Below, in pieces: positions 3,529-40,632 of a DNA stretch of 64,000 bases. This stretch comes from Paraspadella gotoi (Eukaryota > Animalia > Chaetognatha). Both the position numbers and the translations under genes were made by a program. The notes below the pieces were generated by a model. The model had not been told where the DNA came from and ran no database searches. It was given only the letters and a program-made list of their open reading frames with translations. The stretch is from NCBI GenBank assembly GCA_051294375.1, contig CM119266.1, positions 18,710,087-18,774,086 on the forward strand, given 5' to 3'. How positions within the stretch are numbered: position 1 is the stretch's first letter; the number at the start of each line of letters is the position of its first letter.

Positions 3529-4879
3529 TTTATCTGAGCTTATTTATCTGTGATTTTTGTTTTACTCTTAGTTCAATTAATTGCTGATTGATTACCATAT
3601 TTTTCTCTTTACGTTTTTCCCATTGCCTTTAAAATATCCTTGGTTTATTCAGTCGAACATGAATCAATTTTCTTAATTCTTACGTGGAATCACTAATTTT
3701 CAATGAAGTTTTTTCCTTGCCGATGAACGTTGTTGATTCCGCTAACTATTGATTTAAATTTTTATTACTTTGTAAAAAAGTGAAGCGTGTTTTGTTTTTG
3801 TTTTTTTTTGTGTTTTTTTTTTTTTTTAGTTAGCCAAACGGTTTCAAATATTACGGCTGCCACGTTATATCTTAAGCATGACTAATCTTGCTTAAGATTT
3901 AAATTCTTTACCTCAATCTTAAGTTACTACTCTTAATTTATTAACGAACCAGGGTGGTCTTTATTTACTAGTTGTTGGGAATGATTTCCGTTTTGGTAAT
4001 TTTAATTATTAGAGCCCACAATACTTATGCACCTGGTTTTTGTTGTTGTTAACTTAAAGGAAATCCACTGTTATGATTTATCAGTTTTTAGAAAAACTGA
4101 CTGGTAATCATTAATATTATTCATTTTATTCCTTTATTCGCCTTGTTTCAAATCATAGAGAAAACAAATTGCTGTTCATAAATGAGGCAAATTCTGTCAT
4201 TATCATCCATTTCTTGTAAGTTGCATATCGGAAGTGACATCATTAAATAAAACTAACGCTAATTGTCCGAAGATTAACATGCTACACACTTCAAGTTTAA
4301 CTGAGATACTTTGTAATTTCATAACTATTAAAATTATAAGTAGTTCTCTATACCTATCATCAGCTATGTATTCTTATTGGCAATTATGTACGAGTAGTAT
4401 TCTATAATCTTGTGCATCGATTTCACTATTTGTTAGACATGTGTAGACATTATTTTTATGCTTCGGTATTTTTGAAAATTCTTTAGTTTTCACGTTGGTA
4501 CAATTACGTTATCTATTTTGACGCGTTTTCTGTAAAAAAAAAAAGTTATTAAGAACAAACAAAAGGTTTTGAAGTTTCATACTATTGTGTACACTTTTGT
4601 TGTGCATTTAAACGGTAAATAAACATTTTTTTATTTTTATTCAAATTGTGTTCTTCCTTGGGTAAGTCTGAAAAATCCACAGTAAGGAGTTAAAAGGGCT
4701 TACCTGTGTGGAAAAGGCGCCATGTAGACTGAAGTACCATCAGTGAAAAATGGCGAAAACAATAATATTTAGTTTTCTACCATTTTTAGTTCGAATTGAG
4801 TTAGTTATTTTTTCACTTTTTATAAATTTGGGAATAAAGGTGCCAATGGTGCCATTGTCGCTCTCAGAAAAGAGGAAAA

Positions 4880-5028
4880 GATGCGCAATATTAGCGGCGG
4901 GGTTGAAAAGAATCGCGTTAAAGGTGTGGAAAAACATTTCACCGTCATTCCTCAATTCGCTGTATGAGAGCATACCCAGACGAATGCAGGCAGTAATCGA
5001 TGCCGAGGGAAGGCACACCAAATATTGA
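4880..5028 (+). pseudogene. Tc1-family transposase C-terminal remnant
   Basis: W.NISPSFLNSLYESIPRRMQAVIDAEGRHTKY matches the Tc1 C-terminal consensus (LVESMPRRxxAVIxAKGGxTKY). Confidence 0.85.
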
Positions 5029-6900: not shown

Positions 6901-7137
6901 TGTAGTGGTAGTATTTCATACCCCACTACTCGTCCGAGAATCAGCAGCACCTATGGCGCCGGAGGTAGCACGAGCTCCTCCCAACCCAAAGGACTCGGGT
7001 TCGCGCCCTGCTGATTCATACAAGTAAAAGCGGGACGGGGCGTCTAACCCACCTGTAGTGTCGGACTACAGCCCGATCCGAAGTTCGGGACCTTGTGTGC
7101 AACGGACGGTAAACTGCTCGCGGCATCGTCTTCCACA
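6901..7137 (+). mobile_element. Solo LTR, family A (tRNA-like cassette plus twister)
   Basis: TGT...ACA termini; TSD AAAA; second copy at 9404-9631; tRNA-like segment with CTCCCAA loop and GGTTCGCGCCC B-box-like motif. Confidence 0.88.
7017..7099 (+). ncRNA. Twister ribozyme (P5-type), family A
   Basis: P5 CAUACAAG/CUUGUGUG; GA-CGGG; U^AA at 7045/7046; T2 AC/GU (compensatory versus GC/GC in family B); P3 CUGUAGU/ACUACAG; P4 CCCGA/UCGGG; L4 UCCGAAGU. Confidence 0.85.
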
Positions 7138-7472: not shown

Positions 7473-8430
7473 TTAAAAGCAGTTAGTCGTTGTTCGGTTT
7501 CTCTCACAAATGATGAGAAGGTCTTTTTTCTTCTTTTGACCCTGAATTCGACAGGGTTCTGTGCCCGTTTTAAAACCAGCCATAACCAGCTTTTGTAAGT
7601 AAAACGAAACGTAGTCGTATTCGCATGGCCGGCCGCAGGGAAGACCGTTGGATCCGAAGTTTCCTTTGGCGTCCTTCCACTTATTTACTATCGGTGTGAA
7701 CCCAAACTTACACTTCGTCAGCGGCGTTTTTACCCCATCAACTGTCGCCTCCGTGGCGCCCGGATAAAGAAACAGGCAATCTTTTCCTTTGTACGAATGG
7801 GGTTTTGGCGATCGATCTCTCCGACGACTGAGCCACTCATCCCATATGTATTCAGATTTCCCACTCTACAATGAATAACAATTTGACCTGTAGAATTCTA
7901 TTTCGTGCCGATGATGGCTCGCAATTAAAGCCGAAAAAAAAACATGTCCGTATTTTTCATGTTTTAAAAAAATATTTTATTGAACTCTGCGATTCCAAAA
8001 TTAAAATATAATTTATTATTATTAGAAATTGTTATAATATTCTGCTAAAATTTTATTAAAGGAGTTTGATTTAATCATAAACATTAAAAGGCACCAGATT
8101 AATCAATGCTAGAATGTTTTCTTCGATCGAGTCTAATGTATATTCTCAAAATCTCAATATCTGGGACATTTAACATGACTCACCTTTGTTTTAATTTCTA
8201 CAGTTTTAGGTATAGAATTTCGAATCAGGGCGAAAAGCTCTCCTTTTTTTATTTTATCCGCGACGCCCTGAGGCCAAGTCATCCACTTAGGATCGTCAGG
8301 TTTTGGAGTAGGCATCTGCTGTGTCGTTGAATTGTTAGCCCATGATGCTAACCATTTTTCAACAGTCCCCAATTCTTCTAGGCTATCTACGGTCCACACC
8401 TCCCAAGCGTGTACTTGAGCTGATACTTTT
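7473..8430 (-). CDS. Terminal exons (8184-8430 and 7473-7865), C-type-lectin-like
   Basis: WTVDSLEELGTVEKWL, YIWDEW, KDCLFL and PC...LIICER motifs; GTGAGT donor; phase-0 join. Confidence 0.65.
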
Positions 8431-11400
8431 CTGATGGAAATCAGTTTTGAAACCAAATCAAATTAAAAAATCTTAAAAGCATAAGGATCGTCGCAATCCG
8501 CATAAGAAAAATCTGGATTGACAACAAAATTTTGATACTAAAAAAAAAATCAAATTTGAGAAAAGAAAATTAATTTATAAACAGAAAAAAAATTATATTT
8601 TGCGATGTCAATTAAAAAAAATAGTAAAGTACCGAGGAAAATTAAAGTTACAGTTTCTCGAAAAACAAAAAAACCTTTTTCATTGTCAAAAAATTAACTG
8701 ATCAGCAGACGCAGCCCCTGAGAAAAAAAAAATAATAGCAAAATGATAACATGCACGAATGCGATGCTTAATTTTACGAGTTAAATCCTAATTAATTTTT
8801 TTTTTAATAAAAACGATGAGAGAGAGAGAGAGAAAGAGAGAAAAAAAAAAGAAAAAATCAAAAGGCAGCAGCAGAAGCAGCAGGAGAAAAGAGAGAAAAA
8901 GAGAGCCCCTGCAGAACCAGCTGCAGACTCAAAAGGCAGCAGCAGAAGCAGCAGGAGAAAAAAAAGAAAAAGAATAAGCCCTTGCAAAGCCAGCTGCAGA
9001 CTCATTTTTTTCCCTATGAATCAGTGACTAGGGAAAAGAGAGAGGGAGAGAGACATGTAATTAAAAAAGAAAAGAGAGAGAAAGAAATATAAAAATAAAA
9101 GACAGAAAATTTGTTTGTTTTGATAAAACGTAAACAAAACATATTTAATAACTGTCCTGACTGAATTTTAAGGACATCGATGATGAGAAGCTGTATATAA
9201 ATTTTTAGCTTCATACACCCAAATTTAATCATAAAAAAGGCTGATGACGACGACGACGCCACTTATGTGCAAAACCAGAGCAATATCGTCGCAAACGCAA
9301 AGCGATTGCGACGATAAAAACAATGATTATTTTAAAAGGGGAATAGGGAGATCAAGAGGTATGAAATAAGTGAAAATTTTAAATAAAAAAGTATTAAACA
9401 TATTGTCGCGGTAGTATTTCATACCCCGCTACTCGTCCGATAATCAGCTGGACCTATCGCGCCGGAGCTCCTCCCAACCCAAAGGACTCGGATTCGCGCC
9501 CTGCTGATTCACACAAGTAACAAGCCGGACGGGGCGTCTAACCCACCTGTAGTGACGGACTACAGCCCGTTCCGAAGTTCGGGACCTTTTGTGCAACCGA
9601 CGGTGAACTGCTCGCGGCATCGTCTTCTACAATATCCTTATACTATTAACCCTAATGTAATATCAAAATTTTAAAATCGTTTTTCACAGGAGGTGTGATT
9701 CTACCATCTTGGAAAATGAATAATGTATAATTTTCACGATAATTTTATGAAAATAATCATTTATCATATCATAATATTATAATATTATATTTATACTTAA
9801 TATAACCTCTGGGGGTTTTGATCATTTGATTATAATATTAAGCTATACTATATTAATAAATATTTATTATATTTTAATATTATTAAAATTTTAATATTGA
9901 ATAAATTTATTTTTAAACAGAATATTTTTATATACTTTTTTTTTATTCCTCACTCTGGTATATCTAATCATATTACGCAATAGATTCATTTGAATCAGAA
10001 AAATCGAACTTTTTTATATAGGTATATCGTTTTATTTGATCTTAAAATAAAAAGCTGTTGTGGTGGTATATTCACACCACCTCACGTCCACGATCGTTCA
10101 GCCAATACCATTGGCTCAGAGGGGGAACATACCATCCCAGGCGTTGTGTTCCATCCACAATTCCACAGGCCTAACGACTTCCCTCTGCAATGGAAAAGCG
10201 AGATTGTCCTAGGCTAGGGTAACCGCGCCAGTGACTGGATGCGTCACTGAAGGTCGGAAGCCCCCAAAGCCAACAGTGAGATACCCCATCCCTATGGGCA
10301 TCACAGGCAACCCGGCTGTTGCCATACTGTATAAGTTACTGAAACTAGAAAAGGTGTCAGCGTCTTATTCTTTTTCCAAGATGGTATATTAATATTGTCC
10401 GTTATTATTTTAGAGCATTTCAAAATAACGAAATATGAGAAAAATGAGAAAAATTTGGGAAAAAAATGCCAATACGCATATCAAAAAATATTAATTAATT
10501 AATTATTTGCACAAACTTGTTTGTTTTTAGGTCTTTTTATCATGTTACTGACCACGACAAAAGCAACGACGACGACTACCAAATCGACGAAGATTAAATG
10601 AATAAATGATTAATTAATTAAATATTTAATTAAAATATTATTGAATTCTTAGGAAAAACAGTTTATTTAAAATGTGGCAACGAATTTTATGACAAGTAAG
10701 TCGGACATGTTTCGACTCTTACAGTTTTAGAGTCTTCATCAGCAAGTGATTTTACAACAATTTTTCTCTTGAAAGTTGAGTTAGTGAGAAAGTGTGAGAT
10801 AGAGAGAGAGAACAAGAGAGAGATTCCAACAAAGAATTGAGTGAGGGATAGTGGTCAGATGTGAGGACAGTTCAAGGTAAGGACAGGGGAAGGAGAAGTA
10901 AGATTGTGAAAAATGAAAAGAGAGAGAGAGAGAAATGAAATTTAATACATTTAGTAATGTACAACATAGAAAATAAGAATAAATAAGTAAACTTAAATAT
11001 TAACTAAGTATTAATACTATTAAGAACAATGAAAAATAAATTAGTAAAATGAAGTGAAATTGAAGAATAAGTGGTGAGGGATAGGTAAGTAAAGAGTTAG
11101 TGAAAGTAAGTAAAAGAAAAGAGCTCAAAATGAGCTGGCCCCCCCCACTATAAGAGCCTAGTAGGGTGGATGACGGGAAATATCACAGGGCCTCGCTATT
11201 GAGCCAGAACGACTACACTATAAGAGCTAAGTAGGGTGGATGATAGAAAATATCACAGGACCTTGCTATCAAGCCAGAACGACTACACTATAAGAGCTTA
11301 GTAGGGTGGATGACGGAAAATATCACAGGGCCTCGCTATTGAGCCAGAACGACTGGCCGGGCAAATGAAGGACGTTAACGATAAGATCGGGTCATTGGCC

Positions 11401-14400
11401 TGTCATAGGTTGAGAGGATAGAGCTGTAGAGTTCAACATACTGGAGTCTGGTAAGGCTTCGCTTAGAAAAATGCCAAGTGCCACTCGTATATCTCTTTGG
11501 CATGATATACCTCTTCTGACGGTTCTCATTTTGAGCTCTTTTATTTTACTTACTTTCACTAACTCTTGACTTACCTATCCCTCACCACTTATTCTTCCAT
11601 TTAAATTTCACTTCATTTTACTAATTTATTTTTCATTGTTGTTAATACTTAATAGTATTAATACTTAGTTAATCTTTAAGTTTACTTATTTATTCTTATT
11701 TTCTCTGTTGTACATTACTAAATGTATTAAATTTCATTTATCTCTCTCTCTCTCTCTTTTCATTTTTCACAATCTTACTTCTCCTTCCGCTGTCCTTTCC
11801 TTGAACTGTCCTCACATCTGACAACTTGTCATAAAATTCGTTGCCACATTTTAAATAAACTGTTTTTCCTAAATCCTAAAACAAAGAAATCGAAAGTCTA
11901 TACATAATATTGAATTCTTTTATTGATTGTTAAATCAAATGAGTAATAATTGAAACCTGTATAGATATCAATACTTTCGGTTTACTTCTAATTTAACAGG
12001 AAGAGGTAAAAGATAGCTTTGAAAATGATCTCCCTGCTCAATAGCTTAATGTTTTTGAATGAAAATTTTTTTGTCTTACTTTCGTTCAGAAAGTAAGACA
12101 AATCGTTCAGATTTATAAAAAAAGTTTTTCAAAAAATATGATATTGATATTGCTCGAAAGCCCTTGAAAAACTGTATACTATGATATATTTTTCAATTCC
12201 CTAGCATAAAAATATCTTTAAGGTCCAGTCGAAGTTATAAGGTACATAATTATGACTAACTTAGTTTTAAAAATAGTCAATAGCAAGGTATATTACTTTT
12301 AAGAAATTATAATTGGTATTCCTGAATCCATTTTTAACGACTTTCTTGCAATGCCCATATTTGCACAAATTGCTTAAAAGAGCTATGAATTCCAAGTAAC
12401 AAATTTCCCTATATTTTTTATTGAAAAGCTCGAATTTGCCCCTCATCTTTTTTTGTCCATTACGGACTCAAAACAAAATCAATTATCCAAAAATTTATAC
12501 ATAAAAAATGAGTATGTCTTGTCTTTAAGTATCTCTTTTCAAAATCTTAAAATCTCTTCACGTTTTCATTTGGTGAATTTTTTCTAGCGGCGGGTTTTAA
12601 ATGGTCACGCTTAAATTGATTAATAAGTTAGTTAGTTGATAACTTGATTATATGGTGGACTAAAATCCACCAACCGTTCATCAGCGGCCATTGGTGCCAG
12701 AGCCAAGTCATTCGCCTCCCAACCCAAAGGTCCGGGGTTCTAGCCCGGTGGTCGTCTGGCAGTTAAGAGGGACGGGGCGCTTAACCCGCCTGTAACATGG
12801 TGTTACAGCCTGATCCGAAGCTCAGGGACTGCTTACATTGAACGGTTCTGTCACTAACACATAACAAATATCACTGTCTCTTCATTGGTGAGCCCGACTT
12901 CCGAACAAAACAGAAACAACCACTTTCAGGCGACATGCCTCAACCTGGCGATGCACTTTTCGCCCACAACACATCAGGCGACATGCCTCAACTTGGTGAC
13001 GAACTTTCCACCAACAACAACAATTCACTGAAGAGACGCAACAGACTTCTCCCTACGGGAGGGGGGGATGTATGGTGGACTAAAATCCACCAACCGTTCA
13101 TCTGTGGCCATTGGTGCTGGAGGCAAGTCATTCGCCTCCCAACCCAAAGGTCCGGGGTTCTAGCCTGGTGGTCGTCTGGCAGTTAAGAGTGACGGGGCGC
13201 TTAACCCGCCTGTAACATGGTGTTACAGCCTGATCCAAAGCTCAGGGACTGCTTACATTGAACGGTTCTGTCACTAACACATAACAAATATCACTGTCTC
13301 TTCAATTAATTAATTGATTGATTTTAATTTTAATTTAATTAATTGAATAATTAATGCGCTTGCATCTATATTTGATATAAAAAGGAAAAAAGCATAATAA
13401 AATAGTAAAACGAATGTTTTGCTTTCTCCATTGAAACTTATTTCCACTTAGACGATTCCATCGAAAGTTTAGATCCTGCTTAATCAGACACAAAATTTCA
13501 AGTCAATCGCCCCATCCATTCATGAGTAATTGGGGGACGGACGGACATCATTTTTTTGCATAATTTTTAATTTATAATATTGTTCCACTACGTTTTAAAG
13601 AGCTCCAGCTTTATATCACTGAATATATTCGTTACTCCAGTCCCTTTAATACCCTGGCTTGACATATTTGTTGTCTTGATCATATTCGCTCTCTTTAATT
13701 GAAGGTTCACCATCACATACTTCTCGCTCGATGTCCATTAAAGTTCCCATGAGCCTTGCATTGTCCTATAAAATAATAGAGGACTTTTGTCTTTTTCAAA
13801 ACTATGGGAAAGGTAGCCAGAATTCCAGATACTAGTAGAAAACTACTAGTACTAGTACTAGTATCTACTAGTACTAGTAGATATTTACCGCTGGACTGGA
13901 TACTAGAGTGGAGCTCTAGGGAGTAAAAATTTGAGTCAATTAACAATTATAATTATATAATGATAGTTTGATAGAATGATAGTATGAAAATCAACTACAA
14001 AAAATATTTCGCTTATATTGTTTGGGGAACAGAAGCGGAAAATACAATTTACAGCAGATTACTGATAAAAAAAAGTGCTTTTGATTTTTTGAACCCAAAA
14101 TCATACATTGCATACATTTTCATTTTTGCGATACAAATAGAAATATCAGGGTGAACTTTGATATTACATCACTGACTTGAGATACCTGGCCCGAGGCCCT
14201 AGATAACTACCAATCATTATATTATTGGATATCATCGCTTCCATAATTCCTCATACAGGTTAATAAATGTTGGGAAGAAACATTTATTTACGTGTATATG
14301 ACACGATGAAATTTATCGTGGCGTAGTGTATGATGCGATAAAAAAAAATTGGTGATTGAAATTATCTCTGAATGGGTTATATAAAACATCATGATTTTCT

Positions 14401-17400
14401 TCATATTATGGTGGACTAAAATCCACTAACCGTTCATCAGCGGCCATTGGTGCCGGAGGCAAGTCATTTGCCTCCCAACTCAAAGGTCCGGGGTTCTAGC
14501 CCGGTGGCCGCCTAGCAGTTAAGAGGGATGGGGCGCTTAACCCGCCTGTAACATGGTGTTACCGTTCAGGGACTGCTTATATTGAACGGTTCTGTCATTA
14601 ACATATAACAATAATTACTGTCTCTTCAATATATGAAAAAAAAGTTAAAAATAATATTTGGTAGTTACGATATGACTAAATATAGGATAATTTAAAAAAA
14701 TAAATATATATAATTATTTTTTTTAATAATAGTCTAATTATATAAACCATTTCATCCAATTATCTGTCTACACCTCATATCTTGTTGGTAAATTACTTGG
14801 TTCATCTAAGAATACCGAATTATAAAAAATTATTAGAAAAAATTGAATCTTTTTATCTTTCCATACATCTATTTGTTTGTTTATCTATCTGTAACTGCAA
14901 TGTCTAACCTTGTCTACAATGTAAGCTTTGTAGTCAGACTCCTGAAATACCAAAGTGGGGCAAGTTTTGCAATCCTTATTTTTTTTCTGATACTCGTCAT
15001 CAATGGTTTTTCGAGGTTTTCGAGGAACGCATTTGATATGCCAATTAAATTTTGGATCAATGAAGCATGTTGAGCCCTAGAGTAGCAAAGGTTCAAAATC
15101 ATAATTTAGTATTTCTGTTCGTTTTTCCCCCGAATTTATTTTTAGCTTTAAATATATTTTTAAACTTAAATAAACCAATCCTATTTTTCCCTTCAGTTTT
15201 TTTTAAAGAATTTCTTTCTACACTGTATATTAGTTTCACCTTTGGGCAACCACATTTTGGCTCCCTCTTTAAAAAACCTTGCCCATAACATACGGCTTCC
15301 TCTTGTACGGTTCTTGGATCGCACAGGTCCTGCGTTATCAACTGATTGTTTTCCATATCGCAGTATATAAAGCACAGTTGTTGCTTATGGGGGTCGTCCT
15401 TTATTGGAACCAATTTTGCAGAGATTCGGTTTGGGAAATCAAATTCAGTGTAAACGGTTGGAGGAAAGTTGTCGGCGCGACACTGGTACAATCTACCCTC
15501 GAAGAGGATGTCCTCACTTTTAGACCATCCAATTCTGGCAATATTCAACAGCAAGTCTTAGAAAACAATGTCGCTAAATAGGTAATCAGCTAAAAAGTCA
15601 TTTTATAACATACAACATATCAAGAATCGTTATTTTATTTATGCTTTGTTTGAAAATGAAAATGTCGCCATAACTTTAACCCTTTTGCCTTTTTAGTCGG
15701 ATTTGCTTTTAGCAGATTCCGACTCTTTCGGTCCGTCAGTCCCTCCCCAAAATCTTGTCGGTAAATCTTTTTCGTCATATCAGACCCTTGAATTATGATA
15801 AATTACGCAAAAAAAATTATGTCCGTCCATCAGTCCCGCTTAGCATTAAACTCCAATTACTCATTATTAGTGTGTGATTAAGCTGGATATAAAGTTTCAA
15901 TAGAATCGTAAGACTTTTTTACTTATATTTACTCATAATTAGTATATTTGTCAAGAAACTAGTAACGAACTAGTCTCAGTAGACCTGTCCTCGTCCGTTG
16001 ACCCGTCAGGCTGTTACTGGGTGACACTGTCGTCCACTCGCCTTGTCTTTGCAAGTGGGCGCGGTCTTGTCCAGCGCCCCGTCGATGGGTTTGTGGAAAG
16101 GTCCCAAGTCCATCACAAAAGTCAGAGGCTCCAGTCTTGTGACCTCTTGGTCGCCCGCAACTCTATGGACTTGTGGTGTACTTGTGTGGCATTCTTTGGG
16201 GCTCGTGGCCCTCACCACCATTTAAGGTAAAACTCATGGATTACTCATGGATTAATACTGTAGAAAAGGTAGACGTAGACGTGGCATCATTGTCCCATAA
16301 GGGGCCGTTTGGGGACGGGCCTGCTGTCTGACTCTGAAACTGTGTGAATAGAAAAGTGAGAGAAACGTGTACACTGTAATTGTAAGTGTACAGGTAAGGC
16401 AGAGAAAGCAGAGGAAAAATTATAAAGGAAACAATATTTATTCAAAATTGGATAGATAATTTGAAATGAAATTTGGTGTGTGGTTGGAAAGTATTTGATT
16501 AAGCTGGATATAAAATTTTGAAGGAATGGTAGGAATGGAAAAAAGTTTAAATTAGAAAACCAAAAGATATATTTATTTGAATTTTTAAAACTTTCTCACT
16601 CTCTATCTCTTTCTAATGGATTGATTGATTGATTTATGAATTTTTAAATTGATTGATTGAGAAATCTGTTATTATTTATGATGTTATGATGCAGTTATGA
16701 TTAGTTATGTTTTTCTCTCTCTCTATTTATTTAAGAATTTTCTTGTCACATTTATTGGACATCATTGTATCTGACTGCTAAATTATCCTAGGCAGATCCG
16801 ACATTGTTTGCTCAAACTTGTTTTTATTCGAATGTAAAAATCGAGGAAAAAGTTATCTACTTAGTTATTAACTTTTTCAAAGCTCCTCAGTGGCTCAGTA
16901 CCATCCCATTGTGCGTTGCAGGTTTAGTCCTGAGATTGTCATGTCAAAACCGCTTTAATTCATTTTATATTTCAACACTTATGTTTTAAAAACTCGTTAC
17001 TTTTTAAACTTAATCCCAGACCCCTCGTAAAAATATGACGCGATAAAGTCTCGAAAAAAAAATATTTAACGAAAGATACATCCTTCATTAATTTTACCAT
17101 TCCTTAATGTTTATGGAGTAACTTTAAATTTTTTTTACTCTAATCCTTATTCTTAACATATAGCATCAGCTTGTGATATAAGTTACCAAAACATAATATT
17201 TTATATGAAGATTTTAAGGCATTTTAAAAAAATATACAGGAAGTAATATACAGGTAAGATGTAACCACATCGCTTTATCAAACTGAAAGTTTATGATTTA
17301 CTTAAAGGCCTTTATTGGCTATGTATTTATACCAAAATAATTATACCATAATGAGACATTCTACCCTGAAAGGTAATTCAGAATAAAGTTGTCTGCTCCA

Positions 17401-20400
17401 CATCCTCCAACATGCTGTGGAGGCTGTTGTAATGGTTGAGTATGTACTATGTAACAAGCTTTGGAAATTAATGTGACATAATCTTTGTTAAGTACTTGAG
17501 CTAATTAATCTGGGTGTACGCGAAAACCATTTATAATTTGGAGGCAATCATTGATCTTGTCAAAGGTGTGCCAGAAATCCGAGGGTAGCGGCCTAAGGGT
17601 GTAGAACCGATTTTGATGGGGATTGCGGCAAACATCTTTTTTAGGCCCACTCATATTATACCAGATGTAAATTAAGCTAAGATGATTTTTAAAATTTTTG
17701 ACACACCCTCGGGTTACCCAGTCCATCCCACTTTCTACATGATAACCTTAGGACTCGAACCCGGGACGCACATTGGGACGGTGAATTAGTCCACTGAGCC
17801 ACTGCAAAGGAAACAGCTTTAATTGATCTGTGGTGATAGGGCCACGAGTGTATTATGTTATATCATTTTAATAATTTACTAATGGAATGTAAATTGTAAG
17901 TCTTCACTAGTCGGAATATTTTTAGAAGTCAGAATCTTGTCGCGATTCGTCGTAAATTATTAATTGATTAGATTATTTCATGACGCTCGTAACATTCCCT
18001 GACTAGTAAAGGAGCGTTCAAAATTGCTACCTGAGAAAGTCTGTGACTTCCATATTGTCAATATGCTTCCGCTCTGAACCAACAATATCAGCGACAAGAC
18101 GTAATAACCCCTCATAACCAACACGCTTTCTCGCTAATTCTCCGTCCTTCTTGCAAAACAGTTCATAAACTCGGCGATTGCTTGGATCCTTGGATGTTGA
18201 CAGTTCCACGCAGTCGAATTGCTCAGCTTCACTATTCAAAAAAAAAAAAAAAAAAAAATAATAATTTGAACATTCAATATAATATGAGTCATATAAATAT
18301 AGTATGAATCATATAAATACATTGGGTCAATCTTTCAGGGGTGTAACCCCTTGGGGATGTGTACTCATTGGAGAAGGCTGTTCCGTCAATCGCCAAACCC
18401 AAAAAGTCCCTGGTCAAAATGGTCCATGCAAAAGAGGTGCAGGCTGATTAAATCACCGGAATCTACCTCCAGATTTGAAGTTTTTGAAAGCAACTTACTA
18501 AAAAGACCCGCAGAGCACATCAAGTGCATAGCATATCCACCCTATCAGAGGGACATGGAGGGCCTCCATTGGAGCCCCCCTATGCTCAAGGTCACTTCAA
18601 GTTTTAAGGTTTTATGAGATATGTCACAAATAGATTATCATATGTAAAATATGAAAATCATATGAAAGCTATTTATGGATGGATGGACAGAGACAGACGG
18701 ACAGACCTATTTTAAGGTCAGATTGTTTATAGAACTATAATTTTAAATCTATGGTTACCCATTGTGGGCTTTCGAGAAGGCTAGGTACCGGCTGTGTCTG
18801 GTTGAGGGCAGTGGCCACCTAGGGCTGCCCAAGTAGCCGCTGATGCAGTTTCTCCCTCCATCCCCCAGGAGGCAGAAAGGGAGCTTGCTGCTGAAGAGCC
18901 AACCGCGCCCACCACAGCGCAAATGGAAGATAAGCAGAAGCGCCCTAAGAACGTGGGCCACTTGTCCCTCCCCTACCACCAGGGGATCACTGAGTCATTG
19001 GTGCGGGTGGCTGGCAAAGCAGGGGATCTCCACCTCAGTGACGGCCCGCGGTTCTCTGCGTGAGCTTTGGTAAAACCGAAAGATAAAATCCCAGACCGAA
19101 AACATCAGGAGCCGTCTATTGGGCGGGCCTGTGCAGGGGCGGGCAACCAAGCCTGTACAGCAGCATACGTGGGCGAGACAGGCAAATCTCTGACGGATCG
19201 ATTTCAGCAGCACACGAAACCATATCGTGATGCCCGTGGTCATTACTTGTCCGCTGTAGCTGAGCATACGGTAAATACTGGCCATGTATTTAGAGAAACA
19301 GACTGTCTCGTGCTGTCCCATGACCCGAACTGGTTCTCAAGAGGTATTAGAGAGGCAAATACATCAAACCCTCGAGCCCTCTTTGAATCGTGATGGAGGA
19401 CGATTCGACCTCCTCCAAGCTATGATTCGCTATCAAAAGCGTGGTGGAGGCCCCGTCTCCACCCGTCCGCACAATGACTCCCCTGTCTCCACTCAACGAG
19501 ACAGGCGGAGACCCTTCGCGCAGGCAATGGGCAGACGATGCCTTCTCCTTCACCTGTAGCAACTCATTCCCTTTCTCTGTGGAGGTGAGCGCCGCCCAAA
19601 GCGACGGCTGCAGGAGGAAGGAGAGTCCACCACTCCTGTCGCAAAAGCGGCAAGAACGGAAAGCCGCCCACCTCGTCAGCAGGCGAGAAGAGGGCAGTCG
19701 GCAGGCGTACCAGGCCAGAGAGACATCAGAGTAGCCTGGGTATCTTCCCGCAAGGAAGCCTCCCTAACGCCGCACACATAGGCTCAACGATTTTGTCCTC
19801 ACAGCCACTGACACGTCAATGACCCGACCACATCGATCAGGCCTTTCATTTGCACAAGCCAAGGGCACACGCCATTTTCAAGCCTCCGGTACCTGCTCTT
19901 GTCCCTTCTTCTCCCACCATTTCTAAAGACCTCCAGGTGTAACGCCCTGCTCCTTCTCCGTCCGCTATCTCCTACACACTGCCTGATTTTTCAAAAAGAC
20001 CTCAGGTTAACGCCCTGCTCCTCTCCGTCCGCCTAATCCTCCTTACCAACTGCCTGATTTTTCAAAAAGACGCTCCAGGTTAACGCCCTCTGCCTTCCTC
20101 CGTCCGCGCTTATCTCCTACACACTGGCTGATTTTTCAAAAAGGACCTCCAGGTGTAGGGGATCGCGACGCTGCCTCCTTCCTCCTCCGCCTATCTCCTA
20201 CACAGCTCTGATTTTCAAAAAGACCTCCAGGTTAACGCCTGCTCCTTCGCTGCCGTCCTCTATCTCCTACACACTGCCTGACTTTTTCAAAAAGACCTCC
20301 AGGTTAACGCCCTGCTCCTTACCCCCTCCCGTCCGCCTATCTCCTACACACTGCCTGATTTTTCAAAAAAGACCTCCAGGTTAACGCCCTGCTCCTTCCT

Positions 20401-23400
20401 CACGTCCGCCATCTCCTATCACCAGCTAGCCCTGATTTTGTCCAAATACCTCCTAGGTTAACCCCTCGCTCTCTTCGCTCCGTCCGCCTATCTCCTACAC
20501 GACTGCCTGATTTTTCAAAAGACCTCCAGGTTAACGCCCTGCTCCTTCCTCCGTCCGCCTATCTCACACACTGCCTGATTTTTCAAAAAAGACCTCCAGG
20601 TTATCTCCTGCTCCTTCCTCCGTCCGCCTATCTCCTACACACTGCCTGATTTTTTCAAAAGACCTCCAGGTTAACGCCCTGCTCCTTCCCTCCGTCCCCT
20701 ATCTCCTACACACTGCCTGATTTTTCAAAAAGACTCGCAGGTTAACGCCCTGCTCCTTCCTCCGTCCGCCTATCTCCTACACACTGCCCTAATTTTTCCA
20801 AAAAGACCGTCCCAGGTTAACGCCTGCTCCTTCCTCCGTCCGCCTATCTCCTACACACTGCTGATTTTTCAAAAAGACCTCCAGGTTAACGCCGCTGCTC
20901 CTGTCCTCTGTCCGCCTAATCTCCTACACACTGCTGATTTTTAAATCGCGCCAACATCCCACCCAACCTCCGATTTGGTGTCAACCAAATTTAATGATTA
21001 GTCTAGACTCAAAAAAATATTCTAAATTGTTTTTATTTTGCTTTTACATAATAATGACATCAAACTTTATATAATTAATTAAAATTGATATCATTTAAAC
21101 TTACATATTTTAAGAATTTTTTTTGTTTTTCTTTTAATATTTATATTTACTAAATATTATTTTAAAAGGAATATGTTTCTAAAACTAACAATTGCAAATA
21201 CATTTTGTCATATTTTGCTTGTCAATGGTTGTTTCCTCATTTCTCAAGATAACCTCCTTTTTAAAAAGACAAGATCTAGAGACTGACATCAAAGATCAGA
21301 TATTAATTAATAATAATAAGTAAATTAATTAAATAAAAAAAGAGTAATCAATTTGTAAAAAAAAATTGTGCAGTTATATGCATTTGAACTGTATTTTTAT
21401 CTCTCTCTCTGTCTTCTTTCTCTCTTTTCTCTCTCTGTAGAGAGACTTGGCTCTCCGCGTCACAGGGTAGGAATGGCTCGTCGTGAGGGAGGCTCAACTG
21501 CATCTGACAAGACTCCAAACGTCGTATAATACTGGAGATCTCTCAAAAGCAAACCAAATAATAAAAAGGTCGAATCGTAAAATGTAAAAAAATGTAATAA
21601 AAATGTAAATCAGAAGAAAATCCAGCGTCAATGAAACAGAAAATCTCGAGAAAATAACGGCGTCCTTAGAAAAGTCGTAAGAAAATAGTTGATATTCCAG
21701 AGAAAATCGTAAGGAATCGTAATAAAAGTGACTGAAGTTAGTCTGTCAGAGCTTTTCCTAGAGAACTATAGAGAGAGTCGTACGGTTAACCATGGTCCGG
21801 TCGATCGGTCAGTCCGTCGACATCGTCTCTGTCGCCGTCTCCGTCAGTCTCGTGCCTTTCTCTTCACTCTCTCTCTCTCTTTCTCTCTCACTCTTTCTTT
21901 CTCTCTCTCTCTCTCTCTCTCTCTCATGAATATAATTTTTTATTAAGTTAGTTGATTGATTGATTGATTGATTAAAATGACGACAAAGAGGATATGATAT
22001 TAGACAAGACAAGATAACAAGACACAAATATCCCCAAACAGTGAAAATAAAAACAAGTTTGAGCAAACTTGATAATCTAGGAGGTCTTATGGGTTTACTG
22101 GATGATCTTCTTTCTCCATTAAAACTGAAAATAATGAAAATCCGTTTTAACCCTATATCACTGTAATCTCAGGCCAGCTTTTAAAGATGAATATATTTTT
22201 TTAAATAACAAAAACCTTCGTAAACGAATTCGTCAAAATAAAAGATAAAAGAAATTTGAAATCCTAGTTCTTTCTTTGTTATTTCTTGAATTGAGAAGTT
22301 CATTGGTAAAGGCTTGTTTCTCTCTTAAAATACAAATCGCTAAAATCCGCATTAACCAGTTATTACTAGAACCTTATGCTACCTGTTTAACCTGACAATG
22401 ATATTTAGTTCAGATAAACCTGGTTAACGAATACAAGAAAGTCAGAAAAGAAAAATCTGAAAACCTAGTTCTTTCTTTGTTATTTTTGATGATTGACATG
22501 TCAACTGGTAAGGTATATTTCCTTCCTAAAACTCAAAACCCAAAAAACCGCAACAGACCATAATAGCCAAAACCGATTACTAACTAATAAAACTATTATC
22601 AATTTTTAAATATAATAAACCTGTTTAAACGGGTAACTGCAAGAAAAATTTTTAATTCTTGAAACGTAGTTAATTTCTTATATATTTGCGCGAAATGTCT
22701 GTGGTTGAATAACTGATTTGAAAATCAAATTCTCTCTTAATTTAAAAAATCGCAATAAATCCATCAAACACAGACTAACTAAACCTTCCTTTATCTAATA
22801 AAACCTATAGATATTACCAGCAGTGATAAACCTGGTTAAACGAGTGACATAAAGTAAAAAAATGTTTTTGTAAAATTTTTCAATGTAAAATACATGAAGT
22901 AAGTTAAGAAAAAATTATATTACTTTACACTTGTGAAAAAATAACATTTGTCCTTATGCACAATATCCAAGGGAAGACAATCAGCTTTCGAACGCCGTAT
23001 CATTTTATGCAATTAACCATAGTATAAGAAAATGGCAGTTGGCCAAATAAAAAATAATTTATTTTAGAGAAGTAAAGAAAAGTAAAAAGAAAAGAAAGAA
23101 AGGTTACGAGTTTTAGCGATCTTTTCTGGTCAAAAGCCCGCAAGACCATCTACTTATCAGTTAACCTATTAAAATCGAAATCGCTGACATGACTTTTTTC
23201 ACTCGATTTTGAAATTTTTTTTTTCCTGGAGGTCTGAGGCACCGTGAAGGGGGCCAGCTCACTTTGAGCTCTATCTTAACTCTTATACTTCACTATAATA
23301 ATAATTGCTTAACTATCCCTCACCTCTATTTCCTTCACATTTCAAATTTCACAATTTCATCTTCACTAACTTATTTATTCACAGTAGTTAATTGTTAACA

Positions 23401-26400: not shown

Positions 26401-29400
26401 AGGTGGACGGATGGACGGATTGATTGACTGATTAATTAATTATTGATTAATTAATTGACTAATTGATTAAATTAACTGATTAATTATTTGATTTATTAAT
26501 ACATCCTGCATATACATTTAATATAAAAGGAAAAAGAATCATAATCAATAAGAGAAACAGGTTTTTGTTTTTTTCATTTAAACTCATTTCCACTCAAAAG
26601 ATTCCATCGAAACTTGGTTTCCGGTTCAATCACACTTTTCTACTCACATACAATCCCCAGTTCAATCGATAATTAAGTGGTAATAAGCTAACTTGGTCAA
26701 CTTGCATAATTTTAATCAACTTGCATAATTTGGTCAACTGACTTATTTGGTTAACTGACATAATTTGGTCTACTGACATAATTTGGTCAAACTGACATAA
26801 TTTGATCAATTAAGATAATTTGGTCACCGGCATAATTTGGTCACTGAGGCATAATTTTTATCAACTGGCCTAATTTGCTCAACTGGCATAATTTGGTCAA
26901 CACATAATTTGGTCAACTTGCAGAACTTGATCATTTTGCAGAATTTGGTCAACTGGCATAATTTGGTCAACTTTAAGAATTTGGTCAACTGGCAATATTT
27001 TTGTCAATTGGCATAATTTGGTCAATAAACATCAATCAATCAAATCAATCAGAGAGAGATAGAGAGAGAGAAACTTAAAAAAATTCAAATAAATGTGTCT
27101 TTTTGGTTTCTAATTTGAACTCTTTCCACTCAATACGATCCATCAAAAAATTATATCCAGCTTTATCACATTACTTTCCTACCCACAACACAAATTCAAT
27201 TTTGATTTATCTATCCAATTTTTAATAAACATAATAATTATGAGTAAATTTAAGTAAAAATACTTCAAGTAAATATGACTTTTGTTTTTTCCATTTTAAC
27301 TCATTTCCACTCGCACGATTCCATCTAAACTTTAATATACCTCAGCTCAACACACACTTTCCTACCATCATACAAAATTTCAAGTCAATTGCCCTATCCA
27401 CTCATGAGCAATTGGCGTTCACATAGTGAAAATATATTTTTTTGTTTTTTCCATTTAAACCAATTTCCACTCGCACGATTACCTCTCGAAACTTCATATC
27501 CATCTCAATCACAGAGTTTCCTACCCCACACACAAAATTTCATACCAATCCATCCATCCAATCACAAGTAATTGGAGTTTTTTGCTAAGGTGGGACGGAG
27601 ACGGACGGAACGGACGGACGGGACGGACGGACGGACGGACCGACGTACGTACGACGTACGGACGGCACGGACGGACATCGTTTTTTTTGCATAATTAATC
27701 ATAATTCGATGTTCTGACATGATATAAGTGTGTGTGCCCGACAATATTGAGGGGCGGCGAGGGCCGAACGCGAGACCGACGAAATGTTGAGTTATAGAGT
27801 CGCGGAATCCATCTGCTGATAAGACAGATCCGACTAACGATGAGAAACTTATGAAACGTTGATTACGAAACGGTCTGTCTTAACAGATTTTGANNNNNNN
27901 NNNNNNNNNNNNNNNNNNGACGGACGGACGGACGGACGGACGGACGGACGGACGTACGTACGTACGGACGGACGGACGGACATCGTTTTTTTTGCATAAT
28001 TAATCATAATTCGATGTTCTGACATGATATAAGTGTGTGCCCGACAATATTGAGGGGGCGGACCGACGGACCGACAAAGTGAGTTATAGAGTCGGGATCT
28101 GCTGATAAGCAGATCCGACTAATAGAAACGTTATTGAAACGTTAACAAGTTTGAGCAAACGATGCCGGATCTGCCCACGATCATTAGTTAAAACATTAAT
28201 TAATTACACATTAATTAATAAATGTTTGTTTTTAGGTTTTTTTCGGCAGGTCACAAACCACGAAAAAAACGACGATGATGGCGACGACGACAACTAGATA
28301 CTAGATAAACCAAAAAATTGTCTATTACTAATTTAAGAAAACAATTTTGCCCAATTTCGACCCTTAGTGGACGAGTCACGAGAAGAACACTCTCGAAAAA
28401 TGGGTAGCAATCTGGAAACTTATCTTAATAGTAATAATACTTCTGAACTATCGAAAACCTATAGTAGGGGGAGCCGCACTCAATGGGGTGAGTGCAAAAT
28501 TTAGAGTGAGTACAAGCTCAAACGAAAATTTATATATTTTTAAGTATACTTTCAATGGACAAAAAATTTCTTATATGGCTCTATACCCTAGTAATTATTT
28601 TTTAAATTTTTATTTATAGATAGGAAAGGCCAAAAATTTTTTTTATAAATTTTATATTTTAAAATCAGATTCAGGTAGCTTATAAAAAGTTGTCAACACA
28701 AAGTATAATTTTTTTTGGAATATTTTTATGATAAGTAGGTCAAAAATAAGAAAAAACCATAAAAAATCGTCATCATTATCATCTTTTGATGATTTTATCA
28801 GTTTTTTAACATTTTTACTAAGAAAACGTAAGAATTTTTAAAAGCTGTAATTATATTTTTTGTTTAACTTTTTATGCTCTATCAGAATCCATTAAAAATT
28901 TTAAGATTTCCAAAAAAAATTTTTTTCTTTATATAGTAATATAATAATTTTAATTAGGCTAGTACCCTCAGAAAAAATAATATTTGACAAAAAATATTTT
29001 AATACTATAAGCTATGCTCATGATAGATTATTTTAACGTTTTATACATTAGCCTTTAAATTTCATCGGCTATAGCTGGCTATAGTGTTATATATTAGGGT
29101 GGAGTGATGAAAATATTGAGCGATTGAACATTATTTTTATGCTGCCTATGGACATATAATTAACAAATTTTAATTTTTTAAAAAATTTTGTTAGTATAAC
29201 AGCATAGTAAATTTAATTATTTATGTAGTAATATCCTTATAAAATTGTTAAGTTTTCAAAAGATTAGATTCGCCGTAAAAAATTAAGAAACTTTTATAAA
29301 ATAAGTGATATGATATTTTAATGTTTAGATCGCAAAATATGACTAAAAGGTTTTAACATATATAAGTTTCTACTACAGAGAATAAAAAATTATAAATTTT

Positions 29401-39400: not shown

Positions 39401-40632
39401 TATGGTGGACTAAAATCCACCAACCGTTCATCAGCGGCTATTGGTGCAGGAGACAAATAATTCGTCTCCCAACCCAAAGGTCCCAGTGGTTTCCTAGTAG
39501 TTAAGAGGGACGGGGCGCTTAACCTGCCTGTAACACAGTGTTACAGCCTGATCTGAAGCTCAGGGACTGCTTAAGCAGTGCTTATATTGAAAGGTTCTGT
39601 CACTAGCATAACAATAATTACTGTCTCTTCATTGGTGAGCTCGACTTCCAAACACTACAGCAACAACAACACTTTCAGGCGACATGCCTCAACCTGTCGA
39701 TGCACTTTCTGCCAGCAACATATCATGTCTCAACTTGGGGATGAACTTTCCACCAACAATTCACAGAAGAGATGCAACAGACTTCTTCCTAGGGGAGGGG
39801 GGATGTATAGTAAGGCGTAGTAAATTTTCTAAATTTAACTTTAATTAAAATTCTAAAAGTGAGGAACGAACAACATTATATTAATGAACATTTATGTAAT
39901 AAAAAAATTTATAATAAATTTTACAATTTACGCAGTAGGCCATATTTATACTAGTACTAAACCAATAAATGTTAAAATTTCAAAACAGTTTTTTGTAAGA
40001 TTTTTTTGCAGATTTGGATTCGTCATAAAAAGTTGATAAATAGAAATATAACTCTTTTTGAAAAATTCCTTCATTAAGTGGGTCAAAAATGAGAAAAAGC
40101 TATATTTTAAGCTGAAAATTAATTTTTTCCACATTAAATATAGTTTTTTTAATTTTTAACCCACTTAATGAAAGAATTTTTAAAAATGAGTTATATTTTC
40201 TTTTGTCAACTTTTTACGAGGAATTCAAATCTGCAATCAAAATTAAGAAAAGCCTATTTTGAAATATTTCGATTTTATAAGGTTAGTACTATATATAAAT
40301 ATAGCCTACTGCGAAAATTAAAAAACATAAAATTAATTTTTTTTACAAATTAATGTTCACTGATGGTATGTTGTTCATAATTGACTTTTAGAATTTTCGT
40401 ATGTAACTTTCACTACGCCTTAATGTATAGTGGAATAAAATCCATTAACCATTCATAATCAGCCATTGGTGCCAAAGGACCGGGGTTCTAGCCCGGTTGC
40501 CGCATTGCAGTTAAGAGGGATGGGGCGCTTAACCCGCCTGTAACACAGTGTTACAGCCTGATCCGAAGCTCAGGGACTGCTTATATTGAATGGTTCTGAC
40601 ACTAACACACAACAATCGTTACTGTCTCTTCA
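39401..40632 (+). mobile_element. Second full TRIM of family B, 3' LTR interrupted by a hAT MITE
   Basis: LTR1 39401-39631; PBS TGGTGAGCTCGAC; PPT 39791-39803; LTR2 split by the insertion at 39811-40422; TSD AGGG; twister fold retained at 40507-40580. Confidence 0.92.
39811..40422 (+). mobile_element. 612-bp hAT element nested in the TRIM 3' LTR
   Basis: Same TIRs; 8-bp TSD ATGTATAG; partial third copy at about 42590-42815. Confidence 0.92.

What the first reader, a model, noticed from the sequence alone, without database searches (positions are those of the whole stretch)
12651..13304. Candidate twister-ribozyme LTR retrozyme: a non-coding mini-LTR element with a self-cleaving twister in each LTR
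Seen: two 234-bp LTRs, a tRNA-Trp-like PBS, a PPT, a 4-bp TSD and no ORF. Each LTR folds into a P5-permuted twister (G-A-CGGG / U^AA / CCC-GC / P3 / P4 with L4 UCCGAAGC). A second full copy lies at 39401-40632 and a solo LTR at 14407-14628. Known: plant LTR retrozymes carry hammerheads in their LTRs and form circular RNAs; twisters are known from non-LTR elements (e.g. Schistosoma). A Trp PBS with a 4-bp TSD fits Ty3/Gypsy helpers such as the CsRn1 clade. Inference: cleavage in both LTRs releases a 420-nt monomer (12783-13202) with 5'-OH and 2',3'-cyclic phosphate ends. This could be circularised (RtcB) and copied by a helper Gypsy RT. I am not aware of a described twister-based LTR retrozyme.
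Basis: partly seen in the sequence, partly recalled or inferred. Interest (0 to 1): 0.93.

Follow-up and report, generated by a model that had tools for sequence, protein, structure and literature searches.

The report
tRNA-headed mini-retrotransposon with twister ribozymes
A small, gene-less jumping element, repeated at many sites of what is likely an animal genome, carries in each end repeat a tRNA-like stretch followed by a fold predicted to be a self-cutting 'twister' RNA, which would likely cut the transcript into a unit that is then circularised and copied, a combination I did not find described.

Summary
The element is real. 12651-13304 has two 234-bp LTRs (226 of 234 identical), a Trp-type PBS, a PPT, a 4-bp TSD and no gene. 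Its family sits at many sites, with sharp ends. The LTR holds a P5-permuted twister-like motif: catalytic G/A positions and both pseudoknots are present. A second LTR family (about 70% identical) in the window keeps the fold through compensatory changes, including pseudoknot T2. Corrections: this copy's 3' twister is damaged; copy B is interrupted by a 618-bp insertion; Rfam and my own model give no significant twister hit; P1 is vestigial and P2 is short, though phage twisters with such P2 exist. Cleavage, transcription, circles and the helper were not shown. Ten paper searches gave no animal or twister LTR retrozyme. The scan noted Helenus-type elements in other genomes, none listed with a twister. 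Verdict: new variant joining Helenus and plant LTR retrozymes; activity untested.

The parts
12647..12650 (+). 5' target-site duplication ATTA (repeated at 13305-13308)
12651..12884 (+). 5' LTR, 234 bp, TAT...TCA ends
   Evidence: contigs from other insertion sites leave the stretch at 12651 and 12884
12684..12756 (+). tRNA-like unit (Gly-CCC-like pseudo-cloverleaf, 7-bp acceptor stem, A-box-like stretch near 12692, B box 12736-12746): predicted Pol III promoter
   Evidence: ARAGORN hit only at a relaxed threshold (80%), reached by 7 of 500 shuffles; fold z -2.99; boxes; no Rfam tRNA hit
12759..12832 (+). P5-permuted twister-like motif, intact copy: P5 12759-63/12828-32; P2 12767-70/12785-87; G12771-A12772; T1 12773-75/12815-17; 6-nt linker in place of P1; predicted cut 12782/12783; T2 12788-89/12820-21; P3 12790-12808; P4 12809-13/12822-26
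12886..12898 (+). primer-binding site, tRNA-Trp type (12 of 13 match)
12885..13070 (+). 186-bp non-coding internal region with an imperfect repeat of about 48 nt (12927, 12975)
13057..13068 (+). polypurine tract, followed by TG and the 3' LTR
13071..13304 (+). 3' LTR; its twister (13179-13252) is damaged at 13190 and 13237
14407..14628 (+). solo LTR of the same family, TSD ATAT, twister P4/L4 deleted
39401..40632 (+). second two-LTR copy (B), TSD AGGG, interrupted at 39808-40425 by a TA-flanked inverted-repeat element
6901..7137 (+). solo LTR of a second family (TGT...ACA, TSD AAAA) with tRNA-like head and an intact twister-like motif (7021-7095) showing compensatory changes
9404..9631 (+). 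second solo LTR of family 2 (TSD ATAT), twister motif mutated in P2 and P4

Best explanation
This is a non-coding mini LTR retrotransposon (TRIM) whose LTRs carry a tRNA-like stretch, likely a Pol III promoter, followed by a predicted twister ribozyme that in intact family members would cut the transcript in both LTRs to a unit of about 420 nt, which would likely be circularised and then copied and inserted by a tRNA-Trp-primed Gypsy helper. Steps: (1) SHOWN: LTRs, PBS, PPT, 4-bp TSDs, many insertion sites. (2) INFERRED: Pol III starts at the tRNA-like head (about 12684) and reads through, because the family lacks a T4 terminator. [quoted passage not shown] (4) INFERRED: the permuted fold holds the two ends together (P5 pairs the unit's 5' and 3' parts) and a host ligase such as RtcB (recalled) closes the circle; a competing hairpin may keep the circle from re-cutting at once. 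(5) INFERRED by analogy with plant retrozymes: helper RT primed at the PBS runs round the circle and rebuilds LTR-internal-LTR DNA, and helper integrase makes the 4-bp TSD. The copy at 12651-13304 is an aged insertion whose 3' ribozyme is probably impaired.
For: Anatomy. Abundance and fixed ends: 18599 of 7,042,937 contigs of run X1 lay on the stretch, 150 with unlike flanks before 12651; 152 with unlike flanks behind 12884 in X2. Structure: 26 pairs on 7 window copies, 94.8% of cells paired, 6 pairs with two-sided change in P5, P3, P4 and pseudoknot T2 (G-C to A-U), 0 of 500 shuffles as high in covariation score, 30-44% paired when slid. Family-wide variation of at least 3% of depth: 3 positions in the 74-nt motif against 11 in the next 40 nt. 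Precedent for the odd features: about 8 distinct phage twister-like sequences with a 3-nt P2 strand among 38 loci (judged by eye); 2 of the 3 given to cmscan pass the Rfam P5 cut-off; all five P5-type ones have a P4 of 5-7 bp, as here; 9 distinct sequences (12 of 120 loci) carry the same T1 variant. P1 is dispensable for cleavage in vitro (PMC5408937). The only T4 run in copy A is copy-specific: 12960 reads C in 680,420 of 683,935 depth in X1, whereas most Helenus LTRs I read have a T-rich tract soon after the tRNA. P5 joins the unit's ends in the linear and circular folds. Plant model: PMC4918200 Discussion.
Against: No cleavage, transcript or circle was observed. Rfam twister models miss it. 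My model of 36 phage twister cores ranks four LTR copies 2nd-5th of 9 hits, but only at E 0.84-1.6, below a chance hit. P2 is described as 4 bp and length-sensitive (PMC5408937); here only 2 stacked pairs plus a bulged third. No phage example with the exact combination (1 weak candidate in 120 loci). The active-like scaffold costs 7.7 and 5.6 kcal/mol over the best fold, against 0-2.9 in 8 of 9 phage P5 twisters (19.9 in the ninth), and in the full 621-nt precursor P5 and P3 are predicted mostly unformed. The covariation rests on one split between two families (5 + 2 sequences), and one of the 6 pairs rests on a single cell. The T1-breaking G>A at 12817 reaches 2-11% of depth in four runs. Only 2 of 7 LTR copies in the window have an intact motif. 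An uncut read-through RNA would have 200-nt terminal repeats and could replicate without any ribozyme.
Confidence: 0.48

Rival explanations
1. Helenus-type TRIM with an active but accessory twister. The element replicates by the ordinary LTR route from uncut or singly cut Pol III read-through RNA, which has long terminal repeats. The slow ribozyme trims the 5' end, removes the tRNA-like head, or stands in for the missing Pol III terminator, with no circle needed.
For: Read-through from 12684 to the first flanking T4 (13322) gives about 200 nt of terminal repeat. A competing hairpin and weak scaffold suggest slow cleavage. Twisters in Schistosoma Perere-3 and RTE elements act as 5'-end processors (PMC8501958; PMC7761336). 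Helenus needs no ribozyme.
Against: Both LTRs are copies of one sequence, so an efficient ribozyme would cut both and remove the repeat. The fold is kept in two diverged families, which needs a benefit.
Confidence: 0.3
2. The motif is twister-derived but no longer catalytic: a tRNA-headed, twister-bearing SINE was captured into a TRIM LTR, and the stems are kept as a structural signal (packaging, RT recognition) or simply as a relic.
For: No profile hit. P1 absent, P2 short, scaffold unfavourable. Kojima proposes SINE insertion into LTRs as the origin of Helenus. 12817 G>A is common in one run.
Against: The residues that matter only for catalysis and tertiary fold (the G-A pair of letters at 12771-72, U-A-A, the L4 letters) are unchanged between families whose LTRs are about 70% identical, and the T2 pseudoknot covaries.
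Confidence: 0.19
3. Chance resemblance: an ordinary TRIM with GC-rich hairpins that happen to fit a twister pattern.
For: Rfam negative; the descriptor was written after seeing the candidate; fold z-score of the motif only -1.7.
Against: 1 of 20000 LTR shuffles and 0 of 150 window shuffles fit; a second family fits with compensatory changes.
Confidence: 0.03

Closest known systems
Helenus / TRIMp3 (Kojima 2024, PMC10886601; main text parts 1-4 of 6, passages, supplement parts 1 and 7 of 11 and term searches)
   Same: TRIM under 1 kb, two LTRs with a tRNA-like sequence and B box, PBS and PPT, 4-bp TSD as in animal Helenus, Trp PBS in some wasp families, solo LTRs, presumed Gypsy helper; TA...CA LTR ends occur there too.
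   Different: No ribozyme is reported: 'twister' 0 times in the main text, and none of four twister L4 strings lies in a Helenus LTR (exact strings, line breaks can hide a match). Most Helenus LTRs I read have a T-rich tract soon after the tRNA; here a twister-like motif follows and the family lacks T4. The tRNA part here is more degenerate.
Plant LTR retrozymes (Cervera et al. 2016, PMC4918200, passages and Discussion; PMC7761336, passages)
   Same: Non-coding, ribozyme inside both LTRs, PBS, PPT, 4-bp TSD, presumed Ty3/Gypsy helper, unit-length RNA without R repeat.
   Different: Those carry type III hammerheads, 300-400-bp LTRs, a tRNA-Met PBS and 600-1000-nt RNAs, with cleavage and circles shown. 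This has a twister-type motif, 234-bp LTRs, a Trp PBS, a 420-nt unit, a tRNA-like head, a likely animal host, and no RNA evidence. A 2026 preprint still states LTR retrozymes carry type III hammerheads and are mainly from plants (10.64898/2026.07.22.740005, passages).
Type-P5 twister ribozyme (Rfam RF02684; reviews PMC5408937, PMC6154101)
   Same: Order and identity of core letters, T1 and T2 pseudoknots, 8-nt L4, ends in P5.
   Different: P1 reduced to a 6-nt linker (at most one pair), 3-nt P2 strand, 5-bp P4, long P3, T1 third pair swapped; below any Rfam score.
Twister variants of non-LTR elements (Schistosoma Perere-3, PMC8501958, passages and section 17) and Schistosoma hammerhead SINEs (PMC6765202, passages)
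   Same: Twister with weak or absent P1 on a retroelement; Pol III promoter followed by a ribozyme (SINEs).
   Different: Those are target-primed, non-LTR elements with no PBS, PPT or LTR.

Membership tests
Helenus/TRIMp3 | Two LTRs, non-coding, under about 1 kb | tested here: met
   654 bp, longest ATG ORF 83 aa
Helenus/TRIMp3 | PBS and PPT | tested here: met
Helenus/TRIMp3 | 4-bp TSD (animal type) | tested here: met
   5 of 5 insertions
Helenus/TRIMp3 | tRNA-derived sequence with A and B boxes in the LTR | tested here: met
   Moderate: ARAGORN at 80% threshold in 3 of 7 LTRs, 7 of 500 shuffles; B box intact in 4 of 7, A box degenerate; no Rfam tRNA hit
Helenus/TRIMp3 | Pol III transcription | not testable with these tools
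   No raw RNA reads offered; also unvalidated for Helenus itself
LTR retrozyme | Type III hammerhead in the LTRs | tested here: not met
   No Rfam hammerhead hit; the motif is twister-type
LTR retrozyme | Ribozyme motif in both LTRs with PBS, PPT and 4-bp TSD | tested here: met
   Motif in all 7 LTR copies, intact in 2
LTR retrozyme | Self-cleavage and unit-length circular RNA in vivo | not testable with these tools
   Only contigs were available
Twister ribozyme | Conserved L1/L4 letters and two pseudoknots | tested here: met
   T2 covaries, T1 variant occurs in phage twisters
Twister ribozyme | Score above Rfam gathering or significance with a twister profile | tested here: not met
   own model E about 1
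Twister ribozyme | Stem P2 of four base pairs | tested here: not met
   3-nt 5' strand; 3-nt P2 also in phage twisters that pass Rfam
Twister ribozyme | Stem P1 | tested here: not met
   6-nt linker, at most one pair; P1 dispensable in vitro
Twister ribozyme | Cleavage at U^A | not testable with these tools
   needs a bench assay
CsRn1-dependent element | Autonomous partner with the same PBS and ends in the genome | not testable with these tools
   No genome held; no Pfam hit in 145 of 203 open frames of the window

The most novel reading that the evidence does not exclude
An animal lineage of LTR retrozymes arose independently of plants: Pol III-driven mini-LTR elements, in at least two old families, that use a compact P1-less, P5-permuted twister invisible to Rfam to cut and circularise a viroid-sized 420-nt RNA that hijacks a Gypsy RT and integrase.
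Probability: 0.45. Interest if true: 0.88.

Novelty: new variant of a known kind. Interest (0 to 1): 0.74.

Why it matters
LTR retrozymes are described from plants with hammerheads, and Helenus elements without ribozymes. A twister-based, tRNA-headed, likely animal version would show that the ribozyme-plus-LTR strategy evolved more than once with different catalysts. It would give twisters a role in LTR retrotransposition and add a genomic source of small circular RNAs in animals. The motif escapes the Rfam models, so such elements could be common and overlooked. It also tests how far a natural twister can shrink P1 and P2. One cleavage assay and one divergent RT-PCR decide most of it.

Tried and rejected
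Rfam scans: no twister. Own covariance model from 36 phage twister cores: not significant; it was biased, since my search pattern fixed L4 and it covers half the ribozyme. Relatives in public collections: the family pattern gave 1 viral and 8 metagenome matches, none homologous by BLAST, and two of these gave no Rfam hit where tested (L005 only). No whole genome is held, so copy number, subfamilies, the host tRNA-Trp and the helper could not be searched. Expression: no RNA holder listed; run X9 is only guessed to be RNA and showed unlike flanks as the DNA runs did, so it says nothing on transcription, ends or circles. No joint indicating a unit circle was among the joints shown (52 were not shown), and contigs of a high-copy family could hardly show one. 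ARAGORN at default found no tRNA. Helper in the window: none by Pfam in 145 of 203 frames of 62 aa or more. I considered the LTR starting at the TG after the PPT and rejected it: the TSDs and the 150 loose ends place the start at 12651. I considered family 2's two units as the LTRs of one 2.7-kb element and rejected it: each has its own TSD and no PBS follows. Earlier scan notes: nothing by sequence or place.

Full report
OBSERVATION. The window at 12651-13304 holds two direct repeats of 234 bp, 226 of 234 identical (8 differences, 5 transitions), around a 186-bp internal region. ATTA is duplicated on both sides. A solo repeat at 14407-14628 (ATAT) and a second two-LTR copy at 39401-40632 (AGGG) have the same ends and their own 4-bp duplications. 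The internal region opens with a 13-mer that matches the honeybee tRNA-Trp complement in Kojima's Fig. S2 at 12 of 13 letters (copy B 11 of 13) and closes with a 12-nt purine tract plus TG. The longest ATG frame is 83 aa. In public Logan contigs, 18599 of 7,042,937 records of run X1 lay on the stretch at 80% likeness or more, and 150 leave it with unlike flanks exactly at 12651; in X2, 152 do so behind 12884. These are not copy numbers, but they show a dispersed family with fixed ends.

CORRECTIONS TO THE FINDING. The 3' LTR of this copy differs at 13190 (first P2 pair) and 13237 (T1 pair), so only the 5' LTR has an intact motif. Copy B carries a 618-bp TA-flanked inverted-repeat insertion at the start of its 3' LTR, a 27-nt deletion there, and C>T changes in both motifs. 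The solo LTR lacks 12 nt of P4/L4.

First, LTR positions 34-106 (12684-12756) form a tRNA-Gly-like pseudo-cloverleaf. ARAGORN finds it only at 80% of its threshold, in 3 of 7 LTRs, a level reached by 7 of 500 shuffles. The B box is intact in 4 of 7 LTRs and the A box is degenerate. Rfam does not call it. That is the layout of Helenus/TRIMp3 (PMC10886601). Second, a further LTR family, 67-74% identical over aligned columns, has solo copies at 6901-7137 and 9404-9631 with TGT...ACA ends and 4-bp TSDs, the same boxes and the same motif.

IS IT A TWISTER? Against the layout in PMC8501958 Table 1, PMC6154101 section 2.1 and the Rfam P5 consensus, the motif has, in P5-permuted order, the G-A, the T1 strand, U-A-A, P2, the T2 dinucleotide, P3, P4 and the 8-nt L4. 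On 7 window copies, 94.8% of 172 cells pair and 6 of 26 pairs change on both sides, in P5, P3, P4 and T2; no shuffle of 500 reaches the covariation score, and slid registers give 30-44%. This rests on a single split between two families, and one of the six pairs rests on one cell. A descriptor hits only 12767-12826 and 7030-7089, against 0 in 150 shuffled windows and 1 in 20000 shuffled LTRs. Across four runs, letters differing in at least 3% of depth occur at 3 positions of the motif (two at the P3 tip, and 12817 G>A at 2-11%) and at 11 of the next 40 (positions near the ends of the laid stretch are under-reported).

Against it: Rfam gives nothing, and a model built from 36 phage cores gives E 0.84-1.6. 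P1 is a 6-nt linker, and the 5' strand of P2 has 3 nt where 4 bp is described as standard and length-sensitive (PMC5408937). I tested whether such departures occur in nature. In viral contigs, 113 of 129 loci with a 4-nt P2 pattern were well-formed (81 distinct). Of 38 loci with a 3-nt pattern, about 8 distinct sequences were well-formed by eye. Two of the three given to cmscan passed the P5 cut-off, and the five P5-type ones have P4 of 5-7 bp as here. The swapped T1 pair occurs in 9 distinct sequences (12 of 120 loci), but the exact combination was not found (1 weak candidate of 120). P1 is dispensable in vitro. The active-like scaffold, pseudoknots not counted, lies 7.7 and 5.6 kcal/mol above the best fold, against 0-2.9 in 8 of 9 phage P5 twisters, because a competing hairpin pairs the T1 strand with P2/T2. 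I put the chance that intact family members self-cleave at about 0.75, possibly slowly.

MECHANISM. The family lacks a Pol III terminator: the only T4 in copy A is copy-specific, whereas most Helenus LTRs in the two supplement parts I read have a T-rich tract soon after the tRNA. A transcript starting at the tRNA-like head would therefore run through both twisters (inference). Two cuts give a 420-nt unit with no terminal repeat, which cannot do the normal strand transfer; in plant retrozymes this is solved by a circle (PMC4918200 Discussion). In the predicted folds P5 pairs the unit's two ends, which would help ligation. A Trp PBS and 4-bp TSD fit Gypsy helpers: CsRn1 (PMC3630058) or Gypsy-32_NVi-like. 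No helper was found in the window and no genome is held. The chief rival is that uncut read-through RNA, which has about 200 nt of terminal repeat, replicates in the ordinary way and the ribozyme is accessory.

NOVELTY. Searches of the held library for twister with retrozyme, LTR, Gypsy, TRIM, solo LTR, Repbase, non-autonomous and Helenus (two searches served other questions) listed no paper on a twister-bearing LTR element. Passages read in PMC7761336, PMC6765202, PMC12859917, PMC13570524 and 10.64898/2026.07.22.740005 place twisters in non-LTR elements and LTR retrozymes in plants with hammerheads. Other listed papers were seen as listings only. Kojima's text has no 'twister', and his LTR sequences have none of four L4 strings (9 of 11 supplement parts not read through). 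Subscription journals, Repbase, Dfam and preprint supplements were not seen and may bear on this. The scan's own notes list several Helenus-type elements in other genomes, none described with a twister in the lines shown.

VERDICT. It meets the sequence criteria of Helenus and likely works like an LTR retrozyme, but it is not a member of the hammerhead-defined retrozymes, and it fails the profile, P1 and P2 tests of a canonical twister. It is best filed as a new variant that joins two known kinds, with activity untested. Interest 0.74.

Noticed in passing
window 6901-7137 and 9404-9631: Second twister-bearing, tRNA-headed LTR family, seen only as solo LTRs with TGT...ACA ends; its internal region and PBS are unknown.
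   Followed up: partly
window about 50760-50931, minus strand: Heavily altered fragment of the family-1 LTR (twister and 3' part) beside a run of N and the start of the same inverted-repeat element that interrupts copy B.
   Followed up: no
window 39808-40425 and about 29839-30450: TA-flanked non-coding element of about 620 bp with long terminal inverted repeats (MITE-like; Tc1/mariner type by recall), two copies.
   Followed up: partly
window 12653-12672 and 6901-6930: Both LTR families begin with a hairpin of different sequence just inside the LTR end, upstream of the tRNA-like unit.
   Followed up: no
L144, L145, L146, L151, L154, L156, L166, L181: Phage-contig twister-like sequences with a 3-nt P2 strand, mostly with a longer P4: possibly a natural short-P2/long-P4 subtype; L156 shares the three-C P2 strand with this element.
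   Followed up: partly
window 19064-19390 (+): Open frame resembling a GIY-YIG endonuclease fragment of a Penelope-like element (recalled motif; no Pfam hit), next to a 71-77-nt tandem array at about 19944-20902.
   Followed up: no
window 4747-5025 (+) and 8157-8462 (-): Fragments resembling a Tc1-type transposase end (recalled; no Pfam hit) and DUF5641 (E 0.0075, below cut-off).
   Followed up: no
window 47595-48704, 31678-31883, 26673-27042: Tandem arrays with units of 55, 22 and 18 nt.
   Followed up: no
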